A stretch of 62,262 nucleotides of DNA, the filler included, from Sphacelaria rigidula (taxonomy: Eukaryota), in assembly GCA_964200075.2 (NCBI GenBank). It is 4 parts of 4 records of this genome, joined end to end, with 100 filler letters (N's around TTAATTAATTAA, not from the genome) between each part and the next. Parts side by side here need not be neighbours in the genome. Positions count along the whole stretch, not along the records: positions 31,190 to 46,681 come from CAXNAA020001726.1; 3 more parts are not named here. One strand, 5' to 3'. This document shows, in pieces, positions 2,763 to 62,262 of this stretch. Numbering within the stretch: position 1 is the stretch's first letter; the number at the start of each line of letters is the position of its first letter. The translations under genes and the position numbers were made by a program. The notes beneath the pieces are model-generated. The model did not search any database. It was not told where the DNA came from and saw only the letters and a list, made by a program, of their open reading frames with translations.

Positions 2763-4403
2763 CTGATGTTGCAAGTCCCGTTACATTGCGGTGGGAAGGG
2801 CGTCAACAACATATCACCGAGCAGGTGACCATCAGCTGATTGTTAACGTTTTTGCTGCGAACGAAAAGAAATTGGACCGCGGATGGATCACTGATGAACC
2901 ACTCAACTTGGGCATCGGAAACGACTGAGTTCAACCCTCTTAGCGCACGGGTTTGGAATGACACGTCGGGCAGTTGGACATGGTCTTGACTGAGGGCCAT
3001 TTGCTTCTTTGGTGGGACGACAGCGCTTGCATGAAAGGCAGGGGGTTGGGGCTAAAACTCTCGTGCACGCATTCGGCAAAACACAACAACTGCGCCGTTC
3101 GTCTCCGCTGTCACATGCATCGACAACAGCTGGAGTGGAAATACGACGATGGTGGGTGTAGTTGTCATGCCGAGACCAGGGCCTCCAGAACGAACAATAA
3201 AATAGTGTGTGCAAGATGGTCGTGACTCCCGCCTCTCAACCATGCCGGCAAGCTGCGGCAAGCCTATTGGCTAACATCTATATTTGGAGATCTCCCTACA
3301 GCAAGCACACCTACTCGGTGCTCATCTACTGTACGCCTACAGTCCGTTTTATCCCATTCATCTGCATCTCAGGGGTGCCCGTAACCCATCTTCCAAGATA
3401 TAACAGGCCCTTCAAGTTGAGATTCGGTGAATTTGGGGAAGGGAGCGCGCGGGGGGGGTTTGGCCACAGTATACTTTGTGCTACCCTTAGATATAGTTAT
3501 GCTCCAGCATGAGGTCGGCGTGCAGAGTATAGTGGGGGATCCCACCACGATGCGGTTCAAGTCACTTATCCCAAGTCCGATGTGAGACGCAAGAAATTAA
3601 TACATTAATCGAGATACCACCTAGTACTGCAGCTCTTCAAACTTTCACTTCTCGAGTGTCTATTGCCCCGTCCCGGTGGAGGTGGGGAGGGGCTATATCG
3701 CTGTGTATCCTAAATTGTGGACCCCTCTCTTGCCTCCAATCCCCCAACTCGGGGAAAAGGGTTACTAGATTCCTCGAAAGAATGAGCATGGGCTATGTTG
3801 GAATTTGCCCGGTGTCGGGCTATTGCATCCCTGCCAACACACGTCGGTCCGGGGCCGCGGTACTAGGAGCAGGATCAACGCAACACTTTGAACGCCACGG
3901 TGGCTCATATGTTGAATGGATATTATTTCCACCTGATATACTGATATTTTGTATGTACGACGCAAATGGCCTACCCCGGCCGTCAAAACGTCAAGGCGAT
4001 TTATATAGGTTGTCCTGTGCCCAGGGCGCTCCCAATTTCAATTTAATTCGGTGTAAGTGACGTTGCGATCTTGGACTGCGGCGGTGAAACCGGAGTGGTC
4101 TCGGCTGAGCCCTTGTTAGAAGTGGCTGTAAAATGAATGTTTGCCGCAGGCACCCGGGGTATGGTGATGTGTCGTTGCACGGCAGCGTAAAGTTGTATGG
4201 AAGCAGAAACGTGTTCGTGTTATCGTTGTCGCCCTACATTCGCAAGGACCGGCAGCAAGCCGGCGCTGAGACGCGAGCCGTGTCCCGGCAAATTCCCGCT
4301 AGGTCGTCCCGCACTAGTCCCAGCCACTACCATACCTGTTTTCAAGTATAAGTACAGGACTTGCTTCCCAGTATGCCATAGACTGCAAGTTAAAAACTGC
4401 TGT

Positions 4404-4669
4404 CAGCCGGGACGGAGCACACCGGGTTTTCGCCGGACAAGGCTCGCACCCGATCACCACGCGCGAAGCGCCGTCATGTGCTCGGCGAGTCGCATGAAGG
4501 GTGAGCTGCATCCAGCTAAAGATTGTTCGACCCGAAGCCTACTGATTATTTTGCATCTGGATAACAACCTACAGTGAGTTGCTTTTTTTCTGGTATCGCC
4601 ACTCCCAGAGACAGCCATGGCTTATACACTGCCTCATGGGTGTCTCACCAGAAGTGGAGGGGGGGGAGG
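4404..4669 (-). mobile_element. C-tract-associated structured interspersed element, long copy, 3'-truncated
   Basis: The reverse complement aligns with 61885-62080 and 46782-46920; C-run at its 5' junction (G-run 4656-4669 on the plus strand). Confidence 0.8.
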
Positions 4670-5651: not shown

Positions 5652-6275
5652 TTAGAACACACATCCATGTACAGTACACAACATATGCTGCTTACTGCTG
5701 TGATCGACGCTGCGTACCAACAGCAGCGTGACGCTTTGAGCGGTACTACCTGCTCATTGCAGAGCGGCAGGGTGACAAAGCACACCGCAGAACGTCACAC
5801 CCTTGGCCTATCCCTGCCCTGTATCCATTTCGCGCTGTCCTATGTAGTTCCGCCACATCATGAACGCAGCCGCTTGGACCTACGGCCAATGTGTACGCGG
5901 GATATCACCTCTTGCTACGTGCTATATCGCTACGCCACATTTTTCAAAGCTGTCCGTGTTGCAGCTACAGCGTGCGTTTGTAGCATTCCACACCGTGATC
6001 GCACTGACTACAGAAGTGCTTGTCTAGTGTCTGGTACATTTCCACATGCGTGTAGCGTTACTCAGTGATATCATGAGAAAATCCGCAACATCTGGGCGAA
6101 CTGCAGGTGAGGCAATCGCCAAAAGATTACCAGCAAACTCTGCTCCAGTGCGGTCTAAGTTGATATCGCTGGAAGGACGCCACCATAACCACCTTGCCGG
6201 CTGCCAGACTGGAAGGACCTACGATCCGCTGGCATTGCTACTGTCTGTACGGAGATGGTGCCCCCTTGTCGGGCA

Positions 6276-6424
6276 GTGCTCCGTCTCGAAAGGGATGCGT
6301 GGTCAATGGTCAGACGACCAAGGCAAGCAACAAATGAGTACGCCCCCCCCCGGGAGGGGAGGGCGGGCTATTTTGCGCGAAGCACCGGAACCACCAAATA
6401 CGTACCCCCCCCCCCCCCCCCCCC
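6276..6424 (+). mobile_element. C-tailed structured short element with 15-bp flanking duplication
   Basis: GTGCTCCGTCTCGAAAGGGATGCGTGGTCAATGGTCAGACGACCAAGGCAAGCAACAAATGAGTACG+C9, then 53 nt and C20; CCCCCTTGTCGGGCA at 6261-6275 and 6420-6434. Confidence 0.85.
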
Positions 6425-10669: not shown

Positions 10670-10860
10670 CTGTGTGTGTGTGTGTGTGTGTGTGTTGTCG
10701 TCCCGTCTAATCTGGACGCCGGTCTACACCTTTCGATATATGTGAGCGCACCAGCCGGGGTCACACAGGAGGAAGGTCAATACAGGACCTTTTTCTTCTT
10801 TTTTTGTTTTCAGTGTCCCACCTTCCTTCTACGGTGCTTGCCTTTATTTGTTTATCGCGA
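10670..10860 (+). repeat. Interspersed repeat adjoining (TG)n; second copy at 17164-17252
   Basis: TGTTGTCGTCCC..T.TGGACGCCGGTCTA.ACCTTT.G.TATATGTG.GCGCA.CAGCC.GGGTCA is shared by both copies. Confidence 0.75.
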
Positions 10861-15495: not shown

Positions 15496-15595
15496 NNNNN
15501 NNNNNNNNNNNNNNNNNNNNNNNNNNNNNNNNNNNNNNNTTAATTAATTAANNNNNNNNNNNNNNNNNNNNNNNNNNNNNNNNNNNNNNNNNNNN
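15496..15595. other. Artificial assembly spacer (N44-TTAATTAATTAA-N44)
   Basis: 100-bp N run with a palindromic six-frame-stop linker, identical to the other two spacers. Confidence 0.97.
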
Positions 15596-24200: not shown

Positions 24201-27200
24201 CCAAGGGGCTGTACACAGTAGGCGTCGTAGCGCGCGAAACGAAGGGGATTTCTTCAGCGGGATTCACCTGCTTGCCGGGTCCACTGCTTCCCAGGTTCTT
24301 TTTGTGTGCTTCTGAGCCCCCGTACTGCCAGGCGATGCTATCTCCGAGCTCAGTGTAAAGCTCCATGAGAACTTGTACAACCTACAATGGATTCGAAGCG
24401 CCGATTGCATTTTGGTATCTCGAGCTTGGCGAAGAATCATCCCGGGTGTTTCGCAAGCAACAAGACATAGACGATCAATCGATTTTTACTTCCCGTCAAG
24501 TTGCGAGCCCTCAGTTCCTAGCTGCGATAACTTCACGTACCTGGGATCCCGAATCTAATGACTCCTGGCTGCTGACTCCCATGACGTAAAGTTGCTTGGC
24601 GAGAGCGTGTACCCCAACGCTAAACTGCCCAACGTTGGTTCGATCTAGACAATCGATACAGTTTGTGCGAAGAACCCCCTGTTGCTCCATCGGCATAACA
24701 GCGAATCCCTGTCCCCATGGTGGTGGCAACAGCGTGGAGACATCGCCAGCGGATAGCCTTGGCGTAGTGTTGTCCATGACTTTATTAGATCCGCTGGGGT
24801 CATCTTCTCGAACATTCTCGACCGGAATATGACCGCCGGGTACGCTCGAGAATGGTTCCGATTCTTCTTGGCTTTTACCAGTACTACGCTGAGTCTGGCT
24901 CCGCGGACGCTTGAGTGAACGCACCTCGCCTGCTCCGGTGATACCGTGTTCGAACGGCAGTTGCTTCAACGTACGACGCGGAGCGCTACGAACCAACAAA
25001 GGGCATGAAGGATAGGATTGGACGGGACGGGACAGGATAGGATAGGGGGAAATGACACCAACACTATGACGTTTGATATTTCGCTGGATATTATGGTATT
25101 AATACATTACGCGAAGAAGGAAACGGATTAAGCTGCGAAACCCAAGACGCACCCACGGTGCGCACGAGTACCAGCCCTGTTTCATTGGTACATCGTACGG
25201 TTCAAGTATGCTCCCTCCCATCGGTGAGATTCGTAAATCTATTCGCAGCCAGGCAGCTATCTTCTTTCCAAGACATTAAGGAAAAAATGATACGCGGGAA
25301 AATTGCCGGCGACGAAGATGAAGTACTACGGGGAAAAGGATACCTTCGTCGATTCCAAATGACGAGGGAGCGAAAGTGACACATCCACCACGTAACTACG
25401 CAAAGGTTGCCAGCCCGTAGAGCGCGGCTTCTCCAGAATCGTGAGGATCATCAGTTGCGGGAGAAAGAAGTGACACAAAATACTGTCATGGGCACTCTCA
25501 CGACACAACTTCAGTGCGGTTTCAGCCAGGGGTGCTTTCTGGAACACAAAGCCTTGAGTTTGGTGCGTCTCACCTGCAGAAAAATCCAACTTGACCGACG
25601 GTCCACGCGGCCACCTCCTCCAGCTCCTTCAGCACATTCATGTGCCGATGCTTACTGAGAACCGAAAAGTCCAAGGCACAGTATCTGATGCTGTGGTCCT
25701 GGCTCGAAGAAAAGGGGTATCGACAATTAGAACTGGGACACATGATGAGACAACACAAGACAACACAAGCCTCCTTCGCCATACCAACAAGATGGCCATA
25801 TAGGCTTTTGTGCTGTGGATCCATAGGAAAACGGAAGAGGAAATAAGGACGGAAATCCGACGAATCCGATAATACGAGGGCGGGTGTTCTCACCCACATC
25901 ATGATGATGCACTCGTTTTGCAAATGTTCAACCACATACGAACACAGGCGCCGTATACACGCGGAAAACAGTGAGCCTTCACAGCTTCTACAAAATCACC
26001 AGGTTTCCGTCATGTCCAATACATTTTAGTATCGTATCTTCAATTAATTGCGCTGCGATGGAATGGTGCACATCAAGCGGCAGTAAAACACCCGCCTCAC
26101 CTGTGGCATGGTGGAATTGACGTGCTCAATCGCCGACCGGTAATCCTGCCCCACTATGCTTTCGCGTTCCCTTTTTTCAGTGTGTTTAACCAGATCAAGT
26201 ACCAGCAATGGGGACCCATAGCGCTCCAGGAGGTCAGCAAAATGTGCCTGTGGATAACAATGGAGAGCGCATGCAAGCACGTGAGAATACTGTCGGGGAA
26301 ACGAACTGAAGAATGCAACCGCGGAAATTGATGAGGAGATATCCTCCATGCTCTGTACGAATAGGACCAACACGCGACGACATCGGACACTTGCGTGCTG
26401 CCGCTTCAAACAGATTGTCTCATGCATCCACCCTCAAATTCTGCAACACTGAGTTCTCGACACTATAGGCGGTTTACACAGAACCAGTAAATTTCACCCT
26501 GTAGAATCCCATGCAGAACACGTATAGTGCAGTGTTCCCGGCAAACCAAATAAACTTGCCAGATAGCTCCCACATACCCGGTGAATGGACACAGTAGCAC
26601 GGGCTGTTCCATGAGGTGTTCCGCAACGACACGCTGACACCAGAATATCAATTGCTTGGCGATCTTCTGCCATACTTGTGGATAACTCAAGCAGTGCATG
26701 ACACGACAGTGGACCAGTCGGCTGAGAAATTCCATCGCCACCAATTGTCGGGCTGGACATGGGCACTCACCTGCGTGGCGCTGTACATGGGATCCACACG
26801 GCTGATGACGATGTCCGGCTTCGGAGTATATTTGCTCGTGTCCTGAGTCCAAAACGTGGGGATAGACCCTCTCATCTGCACAAATGATGAGAACAAACCC
26901 TCCTTGATTTCCTCCGCATGAGCTATCTGTACAACCGCATACAACAAGCAAATAAATGTCAAACCCGATTCTTGAGCTGACGAGGGGTAGCACGCGTTGC
27001 TAGAATAAACATTGCAGGTGTTGATGAAACGGAGAACGGAGAAAGGCGACGCGGTTTTCGGTACCCCACACAATGGCCATACCCACGTACGTTGTACTGT
27101 CGATGGCTATACGTTTGAGTATGGAGTGTGTGAAGAGTTTGGTTCAAGTGGGTGTTCAAGTAGGCGTCCATCCTCGCCGCTCACGAAATACAACCTCTTA

Positions 27201-29870
27201 GGCGCCATACGTCACGAATTACCCTCATGTCGACCACTGTACACAGGACTCACCACAATTCTCATCACAACGCCGCTTACATCATGTCCGGGGAGGCGCG
27301 GGTTTGTATGGAAGGTGGACCTTAGTCACCCCCGTTATTTCATGCTGTAGTTTTTCTCAGGTGTGTCGGGCTTGTGTTGACCGTTTTTGTCGTGGCAGGA
27401 AAAGTGGGGCGCGGTGTGCATACACCTATGGCCGCTGCTACAGAAGCGTTGTACGCGAAAGCTGTGTCCCTCGAGTGTGGTGTCACCACACCTTGCTGGG
27501 CAGTTGGGTTGCGTTTGTGGGTTTTAGCAAGGTCTTTGATGCAGCATTTGGTAATCAGAAAAAAATCAACGAAAAGTCAGACGGTCCCATAACGCCATCG
27601 GCCACAAGCATCATCGTACTGTAAAATCCTTACTACACCACAAACTGTACATATATGTCTTGGCAGCGCTGTCCTATGAGCTTCCCATGAAGCTAAGCCA
27701 TTGTCTCACAATCACGAAATCGTGGTTGCACTAGAATCCAGCACCAAGGTCAGCAATGTACAAAGTAGAACGTATATTCAAATCCTCCAGGTCTGTGTTA
27801 CACTCGATTACCAAGTAAATGGTCGAGTATAGGATTGTCTTGGATCTAGTATGGCTTGCATAGCCCCTAAAAAATCCCAACGACACCCCTTTCAAGCACT
27901 TCAACAGGACTGTCAGAGGAAAAAAACAAAAGAGGCTAGGCGCCGATGGGATTGGACGTTCCGAACCAAGTTCAGCAACAAAAGTGCTAGTCGTGAAATA
28001 CCAGGTAAATCACATTCCCATGGGCGTGTCAGGGTAGCGGGGCATGTTTCAATCCAAGCTCCAAACAAGGTGTCGACAGCAACTTTTGCTCGCGACTGAA
28101 CCACGTGCTCCATTCGATGGATGATCGCACATCCACCGCTGCGCCAGACGCGGATCAGTCAGCGCTTGTATTAGGTCGCGTCGACAACCTTCTCTACTGA
28201 TTGTTTGTGAACTATGTTCGTGAACTCGGTCGGGGGATCTGCAACGCAACAACCACAGCGTAACAAACGCCGGGCAAGCACCCACTTTCAACTTGGTCAC
28301 ACAAATAACAACATGACAACATATCGCAATGCTTTATTTGCGAAATACCCCTGTCCTAATACTTCCCCCCGTGGGAGATAGGGTGGATCTTCGGGGTATT
28401 GCATTCATTTTTCAAGTGAAAATTGTGCCGATTGCACTCATGACCGACCATGGCCGCGCACAGGTTGAAGTAGTGGGCTCTCACCTGCTCAACCTCGACA
28501 TCATTCGCAACAATACCACCGTCGCTGACCCCACGCTTCAGGTACCTGCGTGCAGCAAAATACGCAAAAATAAGACAACAAGTGACCATGTTGCCCATTT
28601 CCTGCGCTCAGTCGTTACCTTGGGTCATGGGGTACTTCGAAGCGACGTGCTCGGGAACGACTTGTTTCAGAAAAGCTTGGTTGAGCTTCCATGTTACCCT
28701 AGTGCACCGACACGACTGAACGTGCGAGATTTTCGCACTACTGTAGAACTCCTCGTCGAAATAAACTGTGCAAATGTTCGCTGTGTAGTATTGCTTCACC
28801 ACAGAACCTGAGCAGCTTTTGAGAAAACGTGTTTGTTTTACATCCCTCTCGCCTGCTGCGACTCACCGCGCCATAGCAACTAATGACGGGGGCAACTTGT
28901 GGTGATCAAGTAAGCTCGTCGAGAGGGCGGGCCTACACAACTACTGTGTTCCGTGCTTCCGAAATCAACATGTTTAATTTAGCCTTCATGGTGTCACACT
29001 TACCGAGTGCCCGCGAAGTGCCTAGAACGGCGGGCGATGAGCGTCACATTTAGCACTCGCCCCAGCAAGTTGCACTTGCGCTGCAGGAAGGCCCCGTGAA
29101 CGATGGGCATGACCCAGAAGGAAGAGTTCAAATGTCCCACCTGGGCTTCGAGCTCGCGTGTCTGATGGAAATTCCACGCGTACATGTCCTGCGGGAACCA
29201 AGAGGTGCACGAGTTGAAGGTGGACACGATAGGAATACAGCTAACATAAAACATTTCAATCTGGTTTACAACTATTAATCGACAGTTCAACTGTTCATTT
29301 AATCGCGCAACGTTCCCGCTATGCACGACGGTGAAAATAGAAGTGAGATAGATCACATGGTATCCGCACCTTGAATGGTGGAGGGGGAAAGGTCTTGCTC
29401 GTCGCGGCCGTCATGTTGTGCTGCAAGGAGTTGGTGAGGTCGTATGTATATGAGTAGAAGAAGTCCTTCGAGAGGTCTATCAGCTGGAAGAGCCCAAGAT
29501 ATCGCGCCTCAGTGATCTCCCTGTTGACAAGGCGAGGTGGGCATTCTTAGCGCCAGCGAGGAAAGACATGCATGGCGATGGGTCACAAGCGTGTAACACT
29601 TATCGGCGGGAGTAATTAGACCTAGGCCAGCGGAGATGGAAACACTTGGCATCACATTAGGTAGCTAAGGTAGAAAAATATAGTCAAGACATACCTTGGC
29701 GTCGGGTTGAGACGACGGTTGACCTTAGCCAAAGTGTTCACGAACGCGTTCGAGTCGTTGCCATGCCCGGCTGCCGAGCTTAGTGCCGCCGACGCCGCGT
29801 CCGCGGGTTTAATGGGGAACATCTGAGTGGAACCGATAGCGTAGATGAGGTTGCCTCCGATCGCACCGAC
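18244..29870 (-). CDS. FIG4: FIG4/SAC3-type polyphosphoinositide phosphatase (SAC domain), 5'-partial, 20 exons, about 1105 aa visible
   Basis: In-phase exons: 29695-29870, 29370-29520, 29004-29188, 28485-28545, 26771-26926, 26101-26247, 25574-25698, 24541-24985, 24268-24381, 23660-23908, 23039-23296, 22766-22871, 22307-22362, 21780-21971, 21417-21521, 20895-21041, 20215-20391, 19397-19513, 18979-19155, 18244-18417 (stop). Motifs: [57 protein letters not shown], catalytic [12 protein letters not shown] (CX5RT at 24637-24660), [49 protein letters not shown]. Exons below 22400 rest on splice signals and phase only. Confidence 0.95.
22472..22731 (+). mobile_element. tRNA-derived SINE (family 1) in a FIG4 intron
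   Basis: A-box-like TGGTCTAATGG, B-box GGTTCGATTCC (22542-22552), body matching the reverse complements of 57630-57700 and 60065-60140, A-rich end. Confidence 0.7.
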
Positions 29871-31089: not shown

Positions 31090-31189
31090 NNNNNNNNNNN
31101 NNNNNNNNNNNNNNNNNNNNNNNNNNNNNNNNNTTAATTAATTAANNNNNNNNNNNNNNNNNNNNNNNNNNNNNNNNNNNNNNNNNNNN
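31090..31189. other. Artificial assembly spacer (N44-TTAATTAATTAA-N44)
   Basis: Same 100-bp linker. Confidence 0.97.
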
Positions 31190-31306
31190 CGCGCGTGGTG
31201 GTTGAGTCCGAGCCTGGTCCGGTGAAAACCCGGCGTGCTCCGTCCCGGCTGTGTAGGGATGCGAGGTCAATGGTCTCATGACTATGACATGCATGATGAT
31301 GAGTAC
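31190..31306 (+). mobile_element. Structured interspersed element (subfamily B), cut by scaffold start
   Basis: GAGCCTGGTCCGGTGAAAACCCGGCGTGCTCCGTCCCGGCTGTGTAGGGATGCGAGGTCAATGGTCTCATGACTA...GAGTAC matches 62041-62137. Confidence 0.8.
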
Positions 31307-31718: not shown

Positions 31719-32808
31719 AAGTAAGCGGTCGGTGGACACAGGTGTTGAAAGACAGTTTTCGCCGCACCTGAGCAGTTTGCCCTCCAACATATCCGATGCG
31801 ATTCCCAGAGGATTGATTGATCGATCGATCGATTGATCTATTGATTGATTGATCCGTTGATGGATTGATTTGGCTGATTGATCTTCACATGAACTGATCA
31901 CCGAGGGATCCGGTCGTGGTGACAATCTAGATCACAATCTAGATCACAATCTAGACATGCCTCACGTAGACACAACATAAATACTCTAGCTGCAGGCTAC
32001 TACAGAAAGGGAAAATATATCCACACAAGGATGGAAGAAATGAGGTCAGCTGAATCGAAACGAGAGAAGAAGCAATAAGGAAAACAAACCGGCATACACA
32101 AACGGACGGAAAGTTTAAGCATAGCTATGATGTTAATCCAGACTCCACGAAAGCTTGATTTTCGGGCGAGTACCGGTAGATATATCAATGATCAGTGCCC
32201 GGTCAGCGCTGAGACTGGGAAACAAGCTAGGGCTGGAATTACCTGAAGAATGTAACGTCCAAAGATCCCTGAAGGAAGTGCTCGCTCCACTCCCCGTTCC
32301 ACCCAGAGAACGTTCCCAGCGCCGATTCCGGTCCTCCGCTGTTGTACAGGGTCCACTGTCTCAGGATAACCACAAGTGGGAGACAAGTCGAGCACGTCCG
32401 AACGATGGAGCACCCGCGCACGGGAGGGTGCGTCATTACTATCCCCGCTCAAAGATTCCGCTGTTGACTGCTAAACGTAAGCTCTCACATGTGAAGAGAT
32501 CTGATGTTAGACCAGGAGGAGTACCCATATTTTTCAACTGTCAAGACAACAGCCCGGACCTCCAAGTTGAAGTACAGTAGTTTTTCAAGCAGAGGCCAGG
32601 GAGGACGGAGGACGTGAGAGGAGAGAGACGGAGGGGGTCATATTTGCGGTATATGGTGTTATATGGTGTGCTACCACAAATAGGCGCTCCAAGATGCCAT
32701 CCACCACACTGAGAAAACCGTTCGGAAGTCCTGTTGATGGCCTAGGATAGACTTTCACATCATTCCCAAGTGAAGACATCATAATCAGTCTGTTCAATAG
32801 CCAGGGAC

Positions 32809-32884
32809 GGGGGGGAGCGTACTCATTTGTTGCTTGCCTTAGTCGTTTGACCATTGACAACGCATCCCTTTCGAGACGGAGCAC
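32809..32884 (-). mobile_element. C-tailed structured short element (subfamily A)
   Basis: The reverse complement is nearly identical to 6276-6351; CCCCCGTCC occurs on both sides (32891-32899 and 32805-32813). Confidence 0.85.
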
Positions 32885-34683
32885 TACGGAGGACGGGGGC
32901 CGAAAACGAGATTGCGCAAGTAGTGTTGGTTTTACGCTATTCCCCCAGTACTTTACACGTTTTGATCAACAAATAAGCACGAGCATACGGAATGCCTAGC
33001 TGCTACCGGTGTTATGGTGTACGATCCCCTCTTCGCACGTTTGTTTTACGCCGCGAGCCAAACATTTTGGGTAGCCGCTGCAACGAGCGAGTCGTATTGG
33101 ACAAACTCATAGCCAAACAGTAGGATAATCATAGGTGGTCGAGCGAGACGTTCGCATACACGCTGCAAGGACTACGACCAAGTATTCCTGTCGCTTCGCT
33201 AGAATGGCACACCCAGCTGCCTGAACATCAACGTTTACCGCAAGGTTGTTGTCAACCTCCCCTGATTTTACCTTCCACCACTGGAGCGTTAAACATGCGG
33301 TACCATACATTGCACAGCACTTTCCCTCCCGGCGACTGATGGACTTCACTGATTGCTTTATTTCTTCATTGTGGCACACTAACTGATCCTCGAGCGATTT
33401 GGTCTTGGTCATCATGCACAAGATCGACGCACCCCACGTAAAAACAGAAACGGAAACATTCGTCAGAGAAAACTCGAGAAAGGGAGGAGAAAAACAAAGA
33501 AAGCAAGGCGGAATAAAAACGGAACAAAAGTGGACAAAAACGAGAGACAAGCAGCTCATGACTTTGCCGCCCTCGACGGTGGTGCAGATTTCGGACTTTC
33601 GGCAGTGACGTGGACGTTGGCCTCAAAACTCTCCTCGAAATAGATGTCCATTCGACATGGGCTCTTTCGGCGGGACAGCGTTTTTTTACAGGCAATCAAA
33701 AAGTTAGCGACGTCTTGATGCAGTACCTACAATTTACTCCAAATATCCTGTCCATATGAGTGCCCGTCGTAGGTAATGTTGTGGGGCAGTCAGCGATTCT
33801 TGTATCTGCGATGGGTGCCGACCAAAGCTAGTAAACCAACCACCGTGGGGCTGAGTCCAATATGGACGTCCGCTTCCGAAATATATATCAGCACTCGAAA
33901 TCGGTGCCTATACCTCCCACTCCGCCTTATCCCAGTAGTACGCGTCCCTCGCGGCCCGGAATCTCCTCGCTGGTTTTCTGCCGTACAAGTGGCCTCTGAA
34001 TATTCTGGTGGCCAACCGACTGAGGTTCCTCTCGTCTCTTGCACGTTTGGCGTCGCTGAGGGACTCGAGAAACATTCGCCTGCGATCGCAAGAGAGACCG
34101 TGCGGTTTGGTACACGCATGAGCAGCTACACGGTACGTCCCGAGACGCAGGGTCACACGAGAGGGATATTGCTGTGGAGATTTGAATGGCAGAAAGAAGA
34201 TTGAAGTGTTACCTGTAGTAGGGGAGTGGGTTAAGGGGAAACGGTGTACTGTAAATCGAGGCTTGTTGCCGTTACTACTGCTACACTACTCTCGAAATGG
34301 TGCTTTTCTCGGGACAGAAAACAGCTCAAACCACTATACAGACAGCACACACCGGGAAAGGATTGTAGTATTTCAGTCGGGTTTATGGGTGTAACGGCGA
34401 GTGCCACCCACACGGCGATAAAGTTCATGTGCGTATCGTTTTGTCTAGAAACGAAGACCCTGTACTCCACGGGTCGACACATGGAACGGTATCGTCGCTG
34501 CAAGATATTGCCCACTACTGGTTGCGACATTTGTCATCTATGAACGGAGTTCAGCGTACATCGTGACGAAAGTGTTTGGACAACCCTACGAGTGAAATCT
34601 GTACTGTCCGCACAGCACGGACGGCGGTCTCTCGTACAACCTCTACAATGTATAATGTATACAGTACACGGTTGTCCTTTCCA

Positions 34684-34873
34684 GCTTTTGTGATGTAGTG
34701 GTTACCATTCCTCATTGGGGTTGAGGAGGCCCCGGGTTGAAATCCCAGCTAAAGCCGGGGATTATTTTCTGTGACCACGGAAGGCGTCTGCATCAGATAC
34801 CCAGTACAGAGATCTACACAGATATCCGAACGATTTTTACTGTGAAGACAACAACAACAACAACAACAGCAAC
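34684..34873 (+). mobile_element. tRNA-Pro-derived SINE with (CAA)n tail (head is a tRNA pseudogene)
   Basis: Cloverleaf 34684-34756: acceptor GCTTTTG/CTAAAGC, anticodon arm CCTCA-TTGGGGT-TGAGG (GGG), T arm CCGGG-TTGAAAT-CCCAG; then about 90 nt of body and ACAACAACA repeats. Confidence 0.7.
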
Positions 34874-36323: not shown

Positions 36324-39300
36324 CGCAGCACTCGGCTTTGAAGGTGCGCAAGCACATACCGCCTGGTTGGTGAATCGGCCAGCGGAACGAGCCTAAGACA
36401 TGCTGACGATGAGCCATGCACTTTGTCGTGACATGTGGATACTGAAAATTCCGTTGAATATATACAAACATAAATATAAATCGAGGAAAATCGGAGCCCG
36501 AAATTTGTGTCAAGATAAATACAGCATTCGGGGAATACGGCCACCCGATGGTGATAGTAGACCATGTTATGTGTACAATATCTGGCAACGGTCGGACGAA
36601 TGAATGAGTCGTCTGAAAATTACTTGTTTGAGTGTTGTTAATTTGTACTGTACGAATCAATCCCTAGGCTTTGTCTTCAGCGTTGCAACCCAGGTACACG
36701 CACGGGGAATGACGGAACAAATGCGTGAAGACTTTTTTGACCAGCGATCGACTTTTTTTCTCTCTTTCGAGTGAATCAGGCCTGAGAGATGGTGTATTTG
36801 GTGATTCGAACCGGCGATGATATGATTCGTCCGAAGTGTGATATCTTGGTGGTACGTTCAAGCGATATATATATACCTACATAGGCGTGTATACTGAATG
36901 ACTTGCTTGACGTTGATCGATTGCTTAGTTGTCACACAGTAACTGATCCTTTGTTCCCCAGGAATCTATCCGTCGTGACAACACAGGCGCCCTCAAGGTA
37001 AACGATGCGGAGGCACTTGATCAGGGTAACGCAAGAAAGAGGAAACATGAAAAGAAGGACTGCTCACAAACAAACGAACGAAGTAATATGGACAAAAACG
37101 ACAGACAAAACAAACAGCAACGCTCATGCAGTAGAACAACGGAAACGTCGACAGAAATCGGAAAAGGATACAAACGAGAGCACCAAAGACCCGTCCTGAC
37201 GACACTGATCGATCCCGGCGAAATTGATCGGTCCCGACAATCTTGAGAGCAGTGCATATCAACATCAGCACACGACTAAACAACTGCCGCGGGACGCCAA
37301 CGCCTGGATCGTGCAGGTTTGACAGCAGGAATGCAGGAAATAAAACGCTGCTTGACTAAAGCTTTCCAAACAGTTTTTGCGGACGCAATGGAAATAGACA
37401 TCTTCGCTCCTCACCTAGTTAAATATCCCCGGACACACCGCTGCAACCTGCCACACGCCATCTGCGCCCTCAGGATACGGTTGTGGCGACACTTTCCTAA
37501 GAATCGTCGAACTCCACGCTGAATCACATTTGCCGATCTTTTCACATGGCGGCGAGCACGCACGCGGTCGTAGGCCAGTCCCGAGTGGGAACCGAAAAAA
37601 ACGAAAGAAAAAAAGGACCCGGAAACGACGGAACGGGATGAGCACGTTGTTGATCATGAGCCAGAACCGAAGGTCCGTTGACAGGTTTTCCTTGCCGCGT
37701 TTGATCCAACCGAACCACTTTTCCCCGGAGGAAGAATGTTCCGTACTGAGGCATCTCCTTTCACGGGAGCTGCGACATCACGTGACGTTTGACGCGAGTT
37801 CACGCGAGGTTTTCGTCGGAGCATCAAGTCGGACGCATTCCGAACATGTGTTTTCCCTAACCCGAACCCAATCCGTCGGGTAGGGGATAGGCACGTGGTG
37901 TCCTGGGAAACGTGTGCGTTGGCGGAGCTGAAATCGGCGCCATTTCCGGCTCCGGGCAGAGCAGAAAACGTGCGTGCTGCGTGCGATAGGGGAGCTTTGG
38001 ACCGTCAGTCCCTTGAATATCCGAATTTTATTGTCCTACACTAAAGTCAAGAGTTTTTCAATAGTGACGACCTTACGGCGAACATGCGTACACCATACTG
38101 TGTGTTTTTGTGCTTTCATGCTTTTTGGGGCCCTTGGCTTTCAGGTGAAAGGATTAATCACAATCTGTGTCGACTAATGCTTTCCCCTGCCTGATACTGT
38201 CCATTTTCTCTTCAGGGGAGCTTCAAGGTTTGTAGCGTTTTTCGGTTTTCTTGAGCTTTTTACGGCCAAGAGAACCCCATTCGGTGTTCCCCCCTCCCGC
38301 GATATTATTTTGCGTTCTGTTTCCTCCTCGAGATCTCTGCCGTACACCCCTTGGTTGTCTTGGACTCCTCCCCATTGTCACGGGTCAGATTCTACTTTGT
38401 TTACTGTCCCGCCTTGCAGATCATCTCCAGTTTTAAGTGCCTGTATTCCTCTCGATTTAGATCTGAATTGTGGTCAGAGCATAGCAAAAATTGGTGAATT
38501 TGAAAAATATTTTGTTGTCCAGCCCCACGTTGATTGGCAAACGAGCTGTACATAACGCGTGGCGGATAGTTTGGAGTCCTGAAGTGGAATGTTGTCAAAT
38601 TAAGCATTGTCTTCGCTCTGTTAGTGCAGAAATTATCTCGAGGAGAGCTATGAAGTAAAAGCACGTTCGTTTCTTTCTCCCCGTCTTTGGGCCATTTGAG
38701 ATACTCCCGGTGTTTTTTTCTCTTACCCTCAGATCGGACTGCTTTTTTCCGATGGTATATACTGAGTCTTTGCGGATTGCATGCCACGAACTATGGACAG
38801 GGCGTGGTTACTTCAGGTGGGTACTGAATCTTGCTTCGGTCCCCCCTCCCCCCCCCGCCCTCTCTGTGTCACGAGTAGGAGGGGTGCTCCATCTCGAAAG
38901 AGATGCGTGGTCAATGATCAAGCGGCTAACGCAAGCAACAAATGAGCACGACCCCCCCTCCCTCCCCGCCTCCCCAGGAACATGCGTATTATACCTGTGT
39001 TCGAGCCGCATGTGGCTTGCTATCGTTTGGGCGAAATGCATCCTCCAACCTGATTGAATCGCCGTTGCTGCCTGAACCAACGTGGGTAAGAATCGACAAG
39101 CATGACCGAATGAGGTATCCATGAAACGGGGTTCAACCTAGCGTATTGATGGGGGAGGTGTATCGCACTTCTTCTACCGTGGAGTACCTAGAGATTCATG
39201 GAGGTCGCGTATGCACACGAAGAAACGTTGCCTATAACGAGCCCGTACAGGCGGGGGACGCATAGGGAACACGTATGAGGTTTTGCATCTCTATATGTTG

Positions 39301-40152
39301 CTGCACCGTACCATGCAGCAAACAAACACTTAGATTGGGGACTGGCGATAGGGCAAGTGTTGGAGCTTGCGAAGTTAATGCCACAGCAGCCACGTCAAGA
39401 TATGGCCGAACCTTGTGCGTAAGCTTTTGATGATCCAGTTCCTCTTGCTCCTCCTCAAACGCATCCCTTCGAGTACGGGTAAGAGGACGGACGGTAAGGG
39501 CTAAGCTTAGAGCTAGGTTCAGATTTAACGACAGGGCAAAGTGAAGGGTACCGTGGAGTGCGGAGGTACTGTAGCATGCCCCCCCACCCCCCACCCCCTT
39601 TCGGTGATAGATATATTCATTTTCCCTCCTCTCGTAGGCTGCCGTAGACGTAACGCAGATGCTTGTCGCATCGAGGGGACACTAGGAATATTTGCCTACG
39701 CACGAGGCCTTACGGGCATGCAGGATCCTTCCCGTTGACAACCTCAAGGTGGGAACATGATCAAATATTGTCCTAGGAGCGGCACTTTCTACGATACCCC
39801 CCCCCAAAAAGTGCCTGGTCTGGGGAGGCAAATCTTGACGTAAATCGAAATGAAAAAAGCCGAGCACAACGAGCAGCTGGGAATTCCCACTCTTGGGTTC
39901 GTTCTCGCCAATGTCACCCATATGAGGCGCTTCATGCAGCCTGAACCCGAACATCAGGCGCTGTATGACCATTGTTTCGTGACACTTTCGGGCTGGTTCT
40001 GACGGGGGGGTTACTGTATCGTAGAAAGTGTCGAGCGCAACGTCCTTTTGAAACGTTTCTCTAGATACAAGGTTTTATTTGACGTCGTTCCGACGTGCTG
40101 CATAAGTGCCTAAAAAAACTATGAAGATAGATGGATACTGTAGGTAGGTAGG

Positions 40153-40195
<43 letters not shown>

Positions 40196-43100
40196 ATAGA
40201 TAAATAGATAGATAGATGGATTAGTGCATACATACATACATACATACATACATACATACATACATACATACATACATACATACATACATACATACATACA
40301 CATACACAGAGGGAGAGAGAAAGAGAGAGAGAAAGGAAGGGAGAGAGAGTGTCGCATTGGGTGCGGACGATAGTATCATTACCATTATTTGATTATTTTC
40401 GCACATTAATCCGATCTTGCGGGCCCGTGGTCACAGTAAGTAATAGTATTCTGTGGATTGGCCTTCAGAACGTGGCGCTCAAGGTGCCTTACCTATGAAA
40501 CTTACTCCTTCAACCAGTACGTTTAATATTTCAAAGTTGAATACTCCGGAGTAGTATTTTACCAAGTGTCCATCAACAGCCACACGTTGTGTTTGATACG
40601 CGATTTAGGTGTAGTTATTCTCCAACCAACAACCGAAAAGCAATGGCAGGGGGTCCTACCGTCGAGAGACACTTCGACACGTGCGACAAATCTGTTCACA
40701 AGTTGCTGTTATGTTGCTGCCCTCTCGGAACAGAACGCTCTGCCACCGCAGACCAAGTGTACCGATATTCGTCTTCAGTAAAACATAAGGTCGCTCTGGT
40801 CTACCCGTGGAATCAATTCACAACGCGAAAGTCACGAACCAGTACTTACCTGTAGTCCGCAAGACCCACAAGGCTATCCCCTTTCACAGCCGCCACCTTG
40901 CGACGGTAGGTCACTTTTGCGCCAGATCTCAACTGTTCCACACGTGCCGCCTATCCACAGGTCAGGCAGGCAATGGTTGTCTAGTCATTGCAACGGAAGA
41001 CACGAGTAGATTCTTCCTACTATACACGCCATGCCATGCCACGCGCTGTCGGTTGTGCGTACCGCTAGTGTAAATAGCAGTGGATACAGCTGCACTATGC
41101 CAAGCGAACGGGATCACCTTATTTGTCACTGAAGTGCCACCATCGCTAATCGTAATACTATTTATGCGCTCCAGCACATCGCGACAGGGATGGGCGGTAG
41201 TACTGAGATATCATCCATGGTGGTGTTCTATGGTAAAAGTGGAGAAGTAGCATGTTCAGGATTTGTGTGGGAATATAGTGTGTCCCAAGTTTTGTGTCCA
41301 GAAATGTTTGTGAAAAATGAGACACAACCCCCCGCCTTCCCTCCCCCTTCCGTCGCGAGTGCCACTCACCCAGTACAGAACAGCGGGTTATTGTTTGGTA
41401 AATGTGCCAGTAATGTCGCACACGGTACATGGCCTCAATGATGCGTATAATAATCGCTAGTGTCTTCCTCTACACACCTTTCAGATCGGCGCCCACCGCA
41501 CTTTAAACTAGAATTTCTACCGTCAGGAGAATACATCGATATTCTGGGCATTGGTGTGTCGGCCGTCATTTCAACAGAGATATCTAAGAATACTAGGGCT
41601 TCGCTGCTCTCTACTGAAAGCCATTCCAGGATACAACATGTATGCCAACGGTAAAGAAAGCCATGTTCTTTTTATTGCGATAATTGCAGTGCGCTCTGAG
41701 CGGCATGCGTTGCCCAGCATGTATCAGGAATATATGCAGTCGACTAGACCGTTCCGTGCCGTCAACCGTGCATTCCTGTTCCGTAGGCGGTGAATGGTAG
41801 CTCACCGATGCCCTACAGGGCGCGGTGGCGCTAGTCTCCCCAGTGTCCACGTTGTAGTAGTAGACCTCCTGCTTCCCGTCGTCCCAGGCCTGTGGTGGCA
41901 AGAAAACATGGTCAGATATCATCTAGGGTATGCCCGATAAAACCTGGGATTTTCCCACCACCTAATGTCATTTCTCAGATTCGGTCTTCGCAAGAGGCAA
42001 GACCCTGCACTGTCGACTGAGTGGGTCTGCTGTCATCTCCCGGACGAGGCTTTGCTAACAACGAAACTTATCGGCGCAATGAAGGTCGTTGTTTGCGAGA
42101 AAAAAATAAATCAGGAACAAAACGTGTCGGGGGTTGCCACAATCTCCGTTGTTGTGCCAGACCACACCCCTTGATATAGCACGGTGCGAACTTTCACGAA
42201 TAAGGTGTTGGAGTTTCCCACACCACCCCGCATCGTTGTTGCACTGGGCAAAATAGCAAACGGGAGCGTGAATGAAATCAACTAGGGATCCTCATAGGCG
42301 TCTTGTTGAGTTAGTTTTCTCACACAGCGCTTCCTTCGCTGCGGTTGCATCAGCCGCGCGGAAGAACGAAACAGACGGCGGAAGGCGCCACCTTTTTCAG
42401 TCAATCACTTCATCGTGCGTGTTGCCGGTCTTGACCGTCTCCTTGCGTGCATGCACAAAGACACCTGTGAACCAACGCGTGTCTCGTGTAAAAATGAACA
42501 CCCTCACCACATCATCTGTTATGATTGCACCCATTCCCACTATCGTTTTTGGTGTCTGGGACGCTCAAATCCGAATCCTTGCGTCATCCTCCCCCTGCAA
42601 GGTCAATGGTCCTATGATTACGACATACAACATCATGCGTACAACCCCGCCCGCTCGCGAAGTGCTCCGTCCCGGCTTTGTAGGGATGCGAGGTCAATGG
42701 TCTTACGACTACGGAATGCAGAACCATGACTACACTCTCCCCTTTGAGAAGGCAAGCTTTCACGGTCGCGTATGTATGACGTGATGATCGCACCCCCCTC
42801 ATTCTTATCCCGTGGGATATTCCATGGTTGATGTGAGCTTGCATTTGCATCCGATGTTATGATCCCGGTGCTTACGGTGTACGTCTGATACAGTCAGAAT
42901 CGGCGGTACATCAGCAAGCGTGGTTTATTCATGCTGTGAAAGGCTTCGATTTTGGCCCACACACACAGCATCTTGTAAAGTATGAGGTATGCGATTCGTT
43001 TCAGAAGTAAAAATCGGCCGGTGCCGACGTATGATACAATCCAAGCATACAAGCGATGGAGGAGCCCATGTGTTCAGTTGACGCAATATCGAAACGTCGA

Positions 43101-45790: not shown

Positions 45791-46681
45791 CTGGATGCGT
45801 ACAACAACACTTTCGCCAAATTAAGAGTATACATTTTGATTGGGAGTGATGGTTTTCTCCGCTTGGACATTGACATCATTTTTCACTTTAAACGTTGCAG
45901 CGCGACCCTGATTTGCAACCCTGGTGCATGAAGGGGTCATCATTCTGAAGGGGTAGTCGTTCGTTGGGTGTATGAATCGGACGCAAATCGCGACGGGTCA
46001 ATACCCTACACTCGCATTCAGCATACTACGTCGAAGAGCACTCTTGGAAGTCATGGCGCTATGCACAACAGGTGATCACAATCTGCTCATCGTACAGCGG
46101 CGCATTAATGAAAGGAATGTTTGGGTGGTTCGTATGTTCATTCGCCTTCTTTTTATTGATAGTTCAACAACACGAACCGTTCCCTACTCTTAGTTGTCAG
46201 TGTTTTATTCAGTATTAGAGACATATAAAAACAACGAGTTCCTCACACGAGCTCACTTTGAAGAAGAGGCTACACCCTCAACCTCGATAAAATGATGTAA
46301 GTACGTTTTGAGCATACATCTCATTATCCGGTGTAAGGCGTCTACCGTGCGAGAGATGGGTTGATCACTAGACAACACCAACTCGTCCGGGAAGGGGAAT
46401 GAGTACAACTGCAAACGGTTAGAATATCCCGCACGTTGGCCGTTCGATAGCTCCACGCTCCAAATAATCAGTGGCGGAATGAGTATTTACGAAAGTCGAC
46501 CTTAGAGCGGTGAACCTATCAGCATCAGACCCTAGTATATATTGCGGCGTTTGGGGGATGAGCTGACACTCTGCACCAGCTACGTTTTCGCAACTGTTGT
46601 TGATACTTGAGAGTCATGTTGGCAAATAGCCCCCCCCCCCTCTATATACGAGATGAAGACGCTGAACGATAGAGTACCAAA

Positions 46682-46781
46682 NNNNNNNNNNNNNNNNNNN
46701 NNNNNNNNNNNNNNNNNNNNNNNNNTTAATTAATTAANNNNNNNNNNNNNNNNNNNNNNNNNNNNNNNNNNNNNNNNNNNN
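46682..46781. other. Artificial assembly spacer (N44-TTAATTAATTAA-N44)
   Basis: Same 100-bp linker. Confidence 0.97.
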
Positions 46782-46942
46782 CTCAATCACCAAGCCCGAA
46801 GCGTCGTGATGTGTTCGGCGAGTCGCATAAAGGGTGAGCTGCATCCTGCTGAGATTACTCCGCCCGAAGCTCACTGATAATCTTGCATTTGGATGACAGC
46901 CCCCGATTATTATTTTTTTCTGGGGGGGGGGAGGGGGGGGGG
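46782..46942 (-). mobile_element. C-tract-associated element, 5' part, cut by scaffold start
   Basis: The reverse complement aligns with 61920-62035; G-run 46922-46942 marks the 5' junction. Confidence 0.78.
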
Positions 46943-47142
46943 AGTTATCGATTGGACTAAACGTTGCCATACACAGTTCTTTCCCTTGAACCACCCCTTT
47001 CCCATTCCCACGTTCCGTGCCTTTGTCAGCGCATCCACTCCTTCAGCACTTTCCTGTCAGGCCTGTGTTGCCGATTCGCACAAAAACATGTCGTCAGTGC
47101 TGTTTTTTCGCGATTTTGACCCCCCCCCCCCCCTCCCCCCCC

Positions 47143-47325
47143 ACCTCCTCGGAAATGAGTCCGTAGTCTCAAGATATCAGCGGATCTTTGACCACGTACT
47201 ATGGATCCCTGACATTTTGGTTGTAACGTGGATTGATTTGATCAGAGCCTCCGCACCACATCTATTCGCTAAATTTTCTCTACTACTCGTGCCCTCACGG
47301 TTCTTCACGAAGGGAACCAAATGCT
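47143..47325 (-). mobile_element. tRNA-SINE family 1 body, headless
   Basis: ATGAGTCCGT.GTCTC...ACATTTTGG...CCGCACC...CTCACG blocks are shared with 57640-57800 and 60075-60250. Confidence 0.6.
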
Positions 47326-61879: not shown

Positions 61880-62151
61880 TCTGGTGATGATACCAGAACA
61901 TAAAGCAACTCATTGTAGGCTGTCATCCAAATGCAAGATAATCACTACGCTTCGCGCCAAGCAATCGTAGCAGGATGCAGCTCATCCTTCATGCGACTCA
62001 CCGAACACATGGCGGCGCTTCGCGCTTGGTGACTGATCGCGAGCCTGGTCCGGTGAAAACTCGGCGTGCTCCTTCGCGGCTTTGTAGGGATGCGAGGTCG
62101 AAGGTCATGTGACTACAGCATCCAAGATCACGAGTCCCGCCCCCGCCCCCG

Positions 62152-62200
<49 letters not shown>
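61880..62200 (+). mobile_element. C-tailed structured interspersed element, longest copy with intact 3' end
   Basis: About 255-bp body matching the 4404-4600, 46782-46920 and 31190-31306 copies, followed by a C-tract of about 65 nt (62136-62200). Confidence 0.82.
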
Positions 62201-62262
62201 TTCTTCCCACCAAAACACCTCTCTCCCCCATCCTTTCCCCTATTACTCACACAACACAACCA

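What the first reader, a model, noticed from the sequence alone, without database searches (positions are those of the whole stretch)
38884..38949. The 3' core of the C-tailed family is a covarying multi-stem RNA fold
Seen: outer stem GTGCTC/GAGCAC (GAGTAC, G-U, in other copies). Hairpin CATCTC-GAAA-GAGATG here, CGTCTC-GAAA-GGGATG at 6282 and near 32870, and CGTCCC-(9 nt)-GGGATG in subfamily B. Second hairpin TGGTC-N4-GAC(C/T)A with a freely varying loop (AGAC, AAAC, TTAC, TCAT, ATGT, CTAT). Substitutions mostly keep pairing, and the G-U pairs and GNRA loop work only on the C-tailed strand, which fixes the RNA polarity. Short copies repeatedly begin right at GTGCTC, the 5' edge of the fold. 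Inference: this is an RT-recognition element or an uncatalogued small structured RNA or ribozyme that acts as the minimal mobile unit.
Basis: partly seen in the sequence, partly recalled or inferred. Interest (0 to 1): 0.7.

Follow-up and report, generated by a model that had tools for sequence, protein, structure and literature searches.

The report
LINE retrotransposon 3' end, C-tailed
The 66-base "fold" is the very end of a jumping gene (a LINE retrotransposon of brown-alga type), covering its last 20 codons, its stop codon and the bases before a poly-C tail; it probably serves as the handle its reverse transcriptase grabs, but true covariation is not shown.

Summary
Related DNA shows what the core is. 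In 4 outside contigs (L001, L004, L009, L017), an open frame runs straight through it. In L017 this is an intact 1382-aa ORF with endonuclease and reverse-transcriptase domains, and it ends ...GAPSRKGCVVNGQMTKASNK*. Its stop codon is the TGA inside AAATGAGTAC, followed by G and a C-run.

So the core is the 3' terminus of an APE-type LINE whose relatives are annotated in Ectocarpus and Sphacelaria. B-type copies have a non-coding body of about 170 nt but keep the same blocks, like a SINE sharing its LINE's tail. The family is hugely abundant in the source organism: 11,634 to 67,923 contig pieces laid per run.

Two hairpins (H1, H2) are plausible. Their loops are the variable parts, and loop 1 changes from 4 to 9 nt. 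Covariation is not significant: 95.2% of cells pair against 94.0% in shuffles, and the one double change lies in a poorly aligned decayed or partial B row. The outer stem is doubtful. No Rfam family or ribozyme matches.

Best reading: a cis element for recognition by the LINE's reverse transcriptase. That is a known kind of element, with an unusual poly-C tail and an overlap with coding sequence.

The parts
38884..38949 (+). A-type core, copy A3 (the finding): last 20 codons, stop codon and GCAC of a LINE ORF relic
   Evidence: 89.3 bits; frame by comparison with L001, L004, L009 and L017
38890..38905 (+). Hairpin H1 of A3: CATCTC-GAAA-GAGATG (6 bp, GNRA loop)
38915..38928 (+). Hairpin H2 of A3: TGATC-AAGC-GGCTA, degenerate (one A-C mismatch)
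38943..38945 (+). TGA at the position of the LINE stop codon, inside the proposed outer-stem 3' strand
38862..38883 (+). 22 nt of further LINE-derived sequence 5' of the core in A3 (resembles ...TCTCTATTAGGAGTAGGAACG of the LINE)
38950..38975 (+). C-rich tail of A3
6276..6341 (+). A-type core, copy A1; starts exactly at GTGCTC
   Evidence: 97.4 bits
6342..6351 (+). G + C9 tail of A1
6352..6424 (+). Second C-tailed unit (G-rich head ... AAATACGTAC + C20), inside the same duplication as A1
6266..6275 (.). Left target-site duplication TTGTCGGGCA, preceded by C5
6425..6434 (.). Right target-site duplication TTGTCGGGCA
32819..32884 (-). A-type core, copy A2; starts at GTGCTC, flanked by imperfect C-led duplications (32885-32899 and 32798-32813)
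   Evidence: (97.3 bits)
42662..42733 (+). B-type core, copy B1 (9-nt loop 1), short copy
   Evidence: 47.3 bits
42596..42654 (+). B-type partial copy B4, 5'-truncated inside the core, with a C-rich tail; directly upstream of B1
   Evidence: (E 0.018)
31190..31306 (+). B-type copy B2: 45 nt of body (starts at a piece edge) plus the core at 31235-31306; no C-run after it
   Evidence: (51.6 bits)
61893..62201 (+). Full B-type element B3: non-coding body 61893-62065, decayed core 62066-62137, long C tail 62138-62201
   Evidence: (22.1 bits)
46782..46900 (-). B-type body fragment at a piece edge
   Evidence: (D10)
4330..4640 (-). B-type copy with body and only the 5' half of the core (GTGCTCCGTCCCGGCTG), then unrelated sequence
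   Evidence: (D10)

Best explanation
The core is the 3' terminus of an APE-type non-LTR retrotransposon (LINE) of a brown-alga-like genome. It holds the last 20 codons of the single long ORF, the TGA stop and GTAC. It is followed by G and a C-run of variable length.

Shown:
- what the core is;
- that it overlaps coding sequence;
- the C tail;
- one perfect 10-bp target-site duplication led by a C-run;
- very high abundance;
- that nearly all copies are cut down to the core plus 0 to about 60 nt.

Inferred: the core is the cis element by which the LINE's reverse transcriptase selects its template and starts target-primed reverse transcription, as in 'stringent-type' LINEs. The G-run on the nicked bottom strand would anneal to the RNA's C tail. 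The ~75-nt A units and the ~245-nt non-coding B elements would be mobilised in trans because they keep this element.

The likely structural features are hairpin H1 (6 bp; loop GAAA in A, 9 nt in B) and hairpin H2 (5 bp, free tetraloop), together with the conserved unpaired GCG-N-GGTCAA between them. The outer stem GTGCTC/GAGYAC can form only in short units and is uncertain.
For: - An ORF runs through the core in L001, L004 and L009 and in L011/L017. The L017 ORF is 1382 aa without stops and carries Exo_endo_phos (E 8e-11) and RVT_1 (E 7e-32).
- C-runs of differing lengths (8, 9, 11, 13 ...) follow GTACG.
- A perfect TSD, TTGTCGGGCA, is preceded by C5.
- B elements have stops in all frames upstream. 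Even so, they keep GTGCTCCGTCYC, GGGATGCG-N-GGTCAATGGTC and GACTA, while loop 1 goes from 4 to 9 nt, which shifts the frame by 5 nt. The constraint is therefore on the nucleic acid, not the protein.
- Variable columns: 15 of 17 loop columns against 9 of 34 stem columns (Fisher p = 5e-5).
- In 46 protein tails, the last 21 residues match the consensus at 0.891 against 0.798 for the 39 residues before them. The most variable residues map to loop 2 and to one wobble position.
- The sense strand folds better than the antisense strand. H1 and H2 persist in RNAalifold and in the 205-nt context.
- Summed depth in the core is 10 to 14 million in X1 and X3, about 4 to 5 million in X4 and 1 to 1.4 million in X5, falling to under 1% within about 60 nt upstream.
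- Precedent: cognate ORF2 binds a 3' tail stem-loop in ZfL2 (PMC4176376, abstract). LINE UnaL2 and its partner SINE share a 3' tail that is required for retrotransposition (PMC1636434, abstract).
Against: - No significant covariation (39 of 500 and 32 of 500 shuffles reach the observed values). The one double change is in a poorly aligned decayed or partial B row.
- Because the 5' strands are G/U-rich, most transitions on the partner strand keep pairing anyway.
- Among changes inferred from proteins, pair-breaking transitions are as frequent as pair-keeping ones (1.83 against 1.82 per opportunity).
- The unpaired junction is as conserved as the stems (0.062 against 0.052), so conservation does not follow pairing.
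- Fold z-scores are modest (-1.1 to -3.0 for A-type copies, about 0 to -1.1 for B-type), and z is +0.22 in the 205-nt context.
- The outer stem is mismatched in 3 of 10 sequences.
- There is no RNA or binding data.
- Only 10 distinct sequences were available, and they are not independent.
Confidence: 0.7

Rival explanations
1. There is no functional RNA fold. The core is conserved only because it is coding sequence in the master LINE and because most copies are young descendants of a few masters. On this reading the hairpins are incidental.
For: - No significant covariation.
- Pair-breaking and pair-keeping transitions are equally frequent.
- The core is nearly uniform in depth-weighted terms: only one variant, a loop-2 position, appears among the 40 best-supported differences, which fits recent amplification.
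- z is +0.22 in the LINE context.
Against: - Non-coding B elements keep the stem and junction blocks across a frame-shifting change in loop length.
- Variation is concentrated in the loops.
- The protein tail is more conserved than the 39 residues before it, even in relatives that are 67-69% identical.
- Summed depth is flat across the core bins and falls only upstream of it, with the caveat that a contig's depth is one figure over its whole length.
Confidence: 0.2
2. The core is, or contains, an RNA processing signal: a self-cleaving ribozyme or a nuclease site. This would define the 5' end at GTGCTC and release a ~75-nt template RNA.
For: - A discrete 5' boundary at core position 1-2 in all 4 runs, and head-to-tail joints (442->369 and others).
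- A1 plus a second unit lie inside one target-site duplication, as expected if the RT jumped from the physical 5' end of one short RNA to the tail of another.
Against: - No match to any Rfam ribozyme family, even at E up to 10, and none at gathering score.
- By my own inspection of the sequence (no tool), it lacks the hammerhead core, and the order of helices does not fit an HDV-like fold.
- 5' ends also occur at other places (A3 at +22 nt; B4 inside the core; the depth gradient).
- C-run microhomology at the junction could bias where ends fall.
Confidence: 0.06
3. It is a host small structured RNA gene, or a tRNA-derived SINE, that was copied around the genome.
For: Its size (66 nt) and multi-stem appearance only.
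Against: - It is contiguous with, and inside, a LINE ORF.
- There is no tRNA or other Rfam match at any copy.
- No listed run is on record as RNA, so this could not be examined.
Confidence: 0.02

Closest known systems
3' tails of stringent-type LINEs and their partner SINEs (eel UnaL2/UnaSINE1; zebrafish ZfL2-1 and ZfL2-2)
   Same: A conserved 3' terminal element with hairpin(s), followed by a simple repeat or homopolymer tail. It is shared between an autonomous LINE and non-autonomous short elements. The hairpin loop differs between related families, as in the bipartite stem/loop recognition described for ZfL2 (PMC4176376, abstract; PMC1636434, abstract).
   Different: - Here the element lies inside the ORF (last 20 codons), with only about 5 nt of 3' UTR.
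- The tail is poly-C rather than a short tandem repeat.
- Two hairpins and a conserved junction are proposed instead of one stem-loop.
- No binding or mobility data exist.
- The clade is not determined; the nearest solved RTs are L1 ORF2p and R2, at about E 1e-21.
Human L1 / Alu (relaxed type, poly-A-primed TPRT)
   Same: A homopolymer tail, and a target-site duplication that begins with the same base as the tail (C5 before TTGTCGGGCA). This matches A-led L1 duplications, which I cite from general knowledge, not from a call. Trans-mobilised short elements and heavy 5' truncation are also shared.
   Different: The tail is C, not A. A specific sequence block next to the tail is conserved. Truncation is far more extreme: most copies are under about 130 nt.
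Self-cleaving ribozymes of retroelements (HDV-like in R2 and L1Tc, hammerhead in Penelope-like elements; these examples are recalled, not from a call)
   Same: A structured RNA whose 5' edge coincides with a recurrent 5' end of copies.
   Different: No covariance-model match. It sits at the 3' end rather than the 5' end of the element. No catalytic core motif was seen.

Membership tests
APE-type LINE (non-LTR retrotransposon), 3' end | Contiguous with an ORF that encodes an AP-endonuclease and a reverse transcriptase | tested here: met
   L017 has a 1382-aa open frame with Exo_endo_phos and RVT_1 that ends inside the core. No RT was found in the window itself among 279 ORFs of 80 aa or more.
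APE-type LINE (non-LTR retrotransposon), 3' end | Homopolymer or simple-repeat tail of variable length at the 3' end | tested here: met
   C-runs of differing length follow the core in 9 of 11 copies. B1 has only ACTCTCCCC, and B2 has none.
APE-type LINE (non-LTR retrotransposon), 3' end | Target-site duplications and variable 5' truncation | tested here: met
   A perfect 10-bp TSD around A1 plus a second unit, and an imperfect one at A2. TSDs were not resolved for the other copies. Depth falls gradually upstream of the core.
Stringent-type LINE/SINE shared 3' tail | The same 3' tail occurs on an autonomous LINE and on non-coding short elements | tested here: met
   B elements have a non-coding body of about 170 nt plus a related core. 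The B core is a diverged relative of the A core (51.6, 47.3 and 22.1 bits against 89-99 for A copies), so its partner LINE may be a sister lineage that I did not see.
Stringent-type LINE/SINE shared 3' tail | Conserved stem-loop supported by compensatory change | tested here: inconclusive
   Hairpins are kept and loops vary, but there is no significant covariation on 10 distinct sequences.
Stringent-type LINE/SINE shared 3' tail | The tail is bound by the cognate ORF2 and is required for retrotransposition | not testable with these tools
   Needs binding and mobility assays.
Known RNA families, including self-cleaving ribozymes (Rfam 15) | Covariance-model match | tested here: not met
   0 matches at gathering score in the window. 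Scans at E up to 10 of 38700-39100, 61700-62200 and L018/L004/L009 gave only unrelated noise.
tRNA-derived SINE | tRNA-like part | tested here: not met
   ARAGORN finds a single tRNA-Pro at 34684-34756, not at any copy. Rfam finds none.

The most novel reading that the evidence does not exclude
The ~75-nt unit (core plus C tail) is a self-contained minimal retroposon. Its defined 5' end at GTGCTC would be made by site-specific RNA processing at the base of the fold, either self-cleavage or a host nuclease. Its C tail would be added to the RNA or made by RT slippage. End-to-end template jumps between such RNAs would build the head-to-tail arrays. This would be a new way of generating a very abundant mini-element from the coding end of a LINE.
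Probability: 0.1. Interest if true: 0.7.

Novelty: new variant of a known kind. Interest (0 to 1): 0.35.

Why it matters
It turns an apparent 'new structured RNA' into something identifiable: the 3' recognition end of a LINE family of brown-alga type.

Three features are unusual for LINEs:
- a poly-C tail;
- a recognition block that doubles as the last 20 codons;
- amplification mainly as ~75-130-nt minimal units, at very high copy number.

If the hairpins are confirmed, this family would be a compact natural system for studying how a reverse transcriptase picks its template. It would also matter for repeat annotation of large algal genomes.

I found no description of C-tailed LINEs in four literature searches. 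I saw only the listings, and subscription journals and Repbase were not searched.

Tried and rejected
- **Whole genome:** none is held, so no genome-wide alignment was possible.
- **Earlier findings:** nothing relevant.
- **Viral contigs:** 0 matches for two patterns.
- **Metagenome scan:** 6 of 9 loci were chance matches.
- **Genome-contig scan:** 1 of 2 loci (L010) was a chance match.
- **G001:** holds only one copy of the core. Its other RT-bearing contigs (L012-L016) do not reach a 3' end.
- **MAFFT alignment of A with B:** it misplaced the loop-1 indel, so I used the CM-based alignment A4 instead.
- **RNA runs:** no RNA holder was listed, so expression and RNA ends could not be examined.
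- **Read laying:** it lists only the 40 best-supported differences (66 more not shown) and no per-copy sequences. Stem-versus-loop variation across the roughly 10^4-10^5 copies could not be read from it.
- **Relatives' DNA:** the tool that fetches DNA for the protein relatives is closed, so the 254 relatives (120 listed) could be used only as peptides.
- **Ribozyme families by Rfam:** no match.
- **Ribozyme and tRNA-like readings by eye:** the HDV-like helix order, the hammerhead core and a tRNA-like acceptor/T-arm reading do not fit; there is no T-arm.
- **LINE clade:** not resolved. PDB and Atlas hits are generic APE-RT proteins.
- **Literature:** searches for C-tailed LINEs and brown-algal LINE/SINE tails found nothing relevant in the listings. 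Searches failed on term syntax and were re-sent.
Full report
**1. What is in the window**

The window is four pieces of about 15.5 kb, joined by N/TTAATTAATTAA spacers. It looks eukaryotic: it has microsatellites, few long ORFs, and a Sac-domain gene split by introns. No whole genome is held.

The 29-nt 5' part recurs at 6276(+) and 32884(-), which is 3 matches against 0 expected. A profile search adds three B-type copies (42662, 31235, 62066) and a partial one near 42596. A covariance model confirms 11 members at E <= 0.05 across the window and the outside loci. Seven are A-type, of which L001 and L017 are identical in the core; three are B-type; one is partial.

**2. What it is**

A pattern scan of metagenome contigs gave 9 loci, 3 of them true (L001, L004, L009). 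A scan of prokaryote genome contigs gave 2 loci, 1 of them true. That one, L011, is a eukaryote-like contig inside a bacterial bin.

In all four, an open frame runs from upstream straight through the core. It ends ...NGAPSRKGCVVNGQMTKASNK*, and its stop codon is the TGA of AAATGAGTAC. The full contig (L017) carries an uninterrupted 1382-aa frame with Exo_endo_phos and RVT_1 domains and a C-terminal CxC...H....C motif. The nearest solved structures are L1 ORF2p and R2 RTs at about E 1e-21, and the Atlas hits are generic APE-RT clusters.

Protein relatives include 'unnamed protein product' entries of Ectocarpus sp. (55-67% identity) and Sphacelaria rigidula. One run that holds the window is labelled an algae metagenome. 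The host is therefore most likely a brown alga or a close relative.

The core is thus the last 20 codons, the stop and GTAC of a LINE. It is followed by G and a C-run whose length differs between copies. The window itself has no RT: 0 of 279 ORFs of 80 aa or more. Its copies are all short derivatives.

**3. Family anatomy**

*A copies.* A1 and A2 start exactly at GTGCTC, and A3 carries 22 further LINE-derived bases. A1 and a second C-tailed unit lie together inside one perfect 10-bp duplication, TTGTCGGGCA, which is preceded by C5. A2 has an imperfect duplication that also begins with a C-run. By analogy with A-led L1 duplications (general knowledge), this fits priming of reverse transcription by a G-run on the nicked strand annealed to the C tail. 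This step is inferred.

*B copies.* Their body of about 170 nt has stops in every frame and matches no tRNA or Rfam family. They keep GTGCTCCGTCYC, GGGATGCG-N-GGTCAATGGTC, GACTA and ...TGA(G/C)TAC.

*Abundance.* Contigs of four runs were laid on L001:300-700. Pieces laid numbered 59,426, 67,923, 36,886 and 11,634. Summed depth in the core bins was about 10-14 million in X1 and X3 (lower in X4 and X5), with none in the unique flank, and it fell to under 1% within about 60 nt upstream. The tool warns that this figure is not a copy number. Single-copy-like pieces have depths of about 20-30 in X1 and X3, so the family is very abundant, on a rough order of 10^4-10^5 copies or more. The window's own density is 7 copies in 62 kb.

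*Boundaries.* The 3' boundary lies at the start of the C-run. The only true 5' boundary among the best-supported loose ends is at core position 1-2, in all 4 runs, and it is usually preceded by a C-run. Head-to-tail joints (for example '442->369, goes back 74') show tandem arrays. The loose end at 475 is a break caused by subfamily divergence, not an element end.

**4. Is there a fold, and does it covary?**

For A-type copies z runs from -1.1 to -3.0, and the copy in question has z -3.0 with 2 of 200 shuffles folding as well. B-type copies run from about 0 to -1.1. The antisense strand gives +0.5 to -1.0.

*Pair counts.* On the CM alignment (10 distinct rows), 95.2% of cells pair. Shuffles give 94.0 +/- 0.5, and 39 of 500 reach the observed value. 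Only one pair shows a change on both sides, in a poorly aligned decayed or partial B row (shuffles reach it in 93 of 500). The covariation score is 0.142 against 0.118 (32 of 500).

Its covariation term is +0.3.

*LINE context.* In 205 nt of LINE context, H1 and H2 persist but GUGCUC pairs upstream instead, and z is +0.22.

*Why one-sided changes say little.* All stem changes are one-sided wobble switches. Because the 5' strands are G/U-rich, 4 of the 5 possible transitions on the H2 partner strand would keep pairing anyway (my own count from the sequence).

*Evidence that favours hairpins:*
- Variation sits in the loops and in the 3' linker. Variable columns are 15 of 17 in loops against 9 of 34 in stems (p = 5e-5) and 13 of 16 in the linker.
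- Loop 1 changes from 4 to 9 nt, a frame-shifting change, exactly between two retained complementary arms.

*Evidence against a purely structural constraint:*
- The unpaired junction is as conserved as the stems.
- Among 46 of 124 protein tails, pair-breaking transitions are as frequent as pair-keeping ones (1.83 against 1.82 per opportunity). The other 78 were dropped because they do not end at the tail, or do not match at least 30 of 60 residues without gaps. Transversions are rarer in stems (0.31) and junction (0.23) than in loops (1.0-1.1) or upstream (0.68).

These peptides are not independent of each other, and many come from decayed copies.

*Protein conservation.* The last 21 residues are more conserved than the 39 before them (0.891 against 0.798). 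They are nearly unchanged in relatives that are only 67-69% identical over the C-terminal region.

**5. Mechanism**

The best-supported reading is a cis-acting 3' element of a stringent-type LINE, recognised by its own RT and borrowed by short non-autonomous elements. This has precedent in ZfL2 and in UnaL2 with its partner SINE (abstracts only).

Shown: the core's identity, its coding overlap, the tail, the TSD, the sharing with non-coding elements, the abundance, and the minimal retained unit. Inferred: recognition by the RT, a role for H1 and H2, and G-run/C-tail priming.

The discrete 5' end at GTGCTC remains unexplained. Candidates are:
- processing of the template RNA;
- a defined transcript start;
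- junction bias from C-run microhomology;
- template jumping between short RNAs.

**6. Known families**

No Rfam family matches, at gathering score or at E up to 10, so the ribozyme and small-RNA-gene readings have no support.

**7. Novelty and limits**

The kind of element, a LINE/SINE 3' tail, is well known. Three things are unusual: the poly-C tail, the placement of the element inside the ORF with about 5 nt of 3' UTR, and amplification mainly as ~75-130-nt units.

Four literature searches found no description of such an element (0 papers; listings only, nothing relevant). This is weak evidence of absence, because Repbase and subscription journals were not searched and no supplements were read.

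The covariation question stays open.

Noticed in passing
window 15496-15595, 31090-31189, 46682-46781: The window is four separate pieces joined by N...TTAATTAATTAA...N spacers. Repeats sit at several piece edges (31190, 46782, 62262), as expected where an assembly breaks at repeats.
   Followed up: partly
window 6352-6424: A second C-tailed unit sits directly after A1. Its head is G-rich (GGGAGGGGAGGGCGGGC, the complement of a C-rich tail), and it ends AAATACGTAC + C20. In L017 the C tail is likewise followed by a G-rich tract. These may be tail-to-tail insertions into existing C/G runs.
   Followed up: partly
L017 4741-4799 (+ strand of the locus, antisense to the LINE): A diverged core-like segment (GGTGCTCCGTCTC...GGTCAATGGC...CATGAGTTC) lies inverted in the region 5' of the LINE ORF (CM E = 3.5 only). 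It may be a nested insertion of another family member.
   Followed up: no
window 39580-39598, 41323-41352, 46630-46645, 47120-47149: Further C-runs with no recognisable core before them. One is preceded by AAATGAGACACAA, which resembles the extreme 3' end AAATGAGTACG. These may be very short copies or other C-tailed families.
   Followed up: no
window 24514-29410 (-): Exons of a SacI-homology (Syja_N) phosphoinositide phosphatase gene, split by introns. It is the only clear host gene found by Pfam in the window.
   Followed up: partly
window 34684-34756 (+): tRNA-Pro (GGG) predicted by ARAGORN. Rfam reported nothing at gathering score anywhere in the window, so this call is uncertain.
   Followed up: no
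window 8293-9098: Three copies of a ~99-nt repeat spaced 342-365 nt apart (71-76% identity), on unknown sequence. A separate 98-nt repeat pair lies at 10681 and 17163 (82%).
   Followed up: no
window 55570-55845 (-): A weak hit to the hAT transposase dimerisation domain (E 0.0024, below the cut-off). It may be a relic of a DNA transposon.
   Followed up: no
L011 / L017 (G001:C43): A 5.3-kb contig carrying an intact eukaryotic LINE sits in a genome bin labelled bacterial. It is most likely contamination of the bin by algal DNA.
   Followed up: partly
window 40121-40344: A compound microsatellite: (TAGG)n, (TAGA)n, (TACA)n, then a GA-rich run.
   Followed up: no
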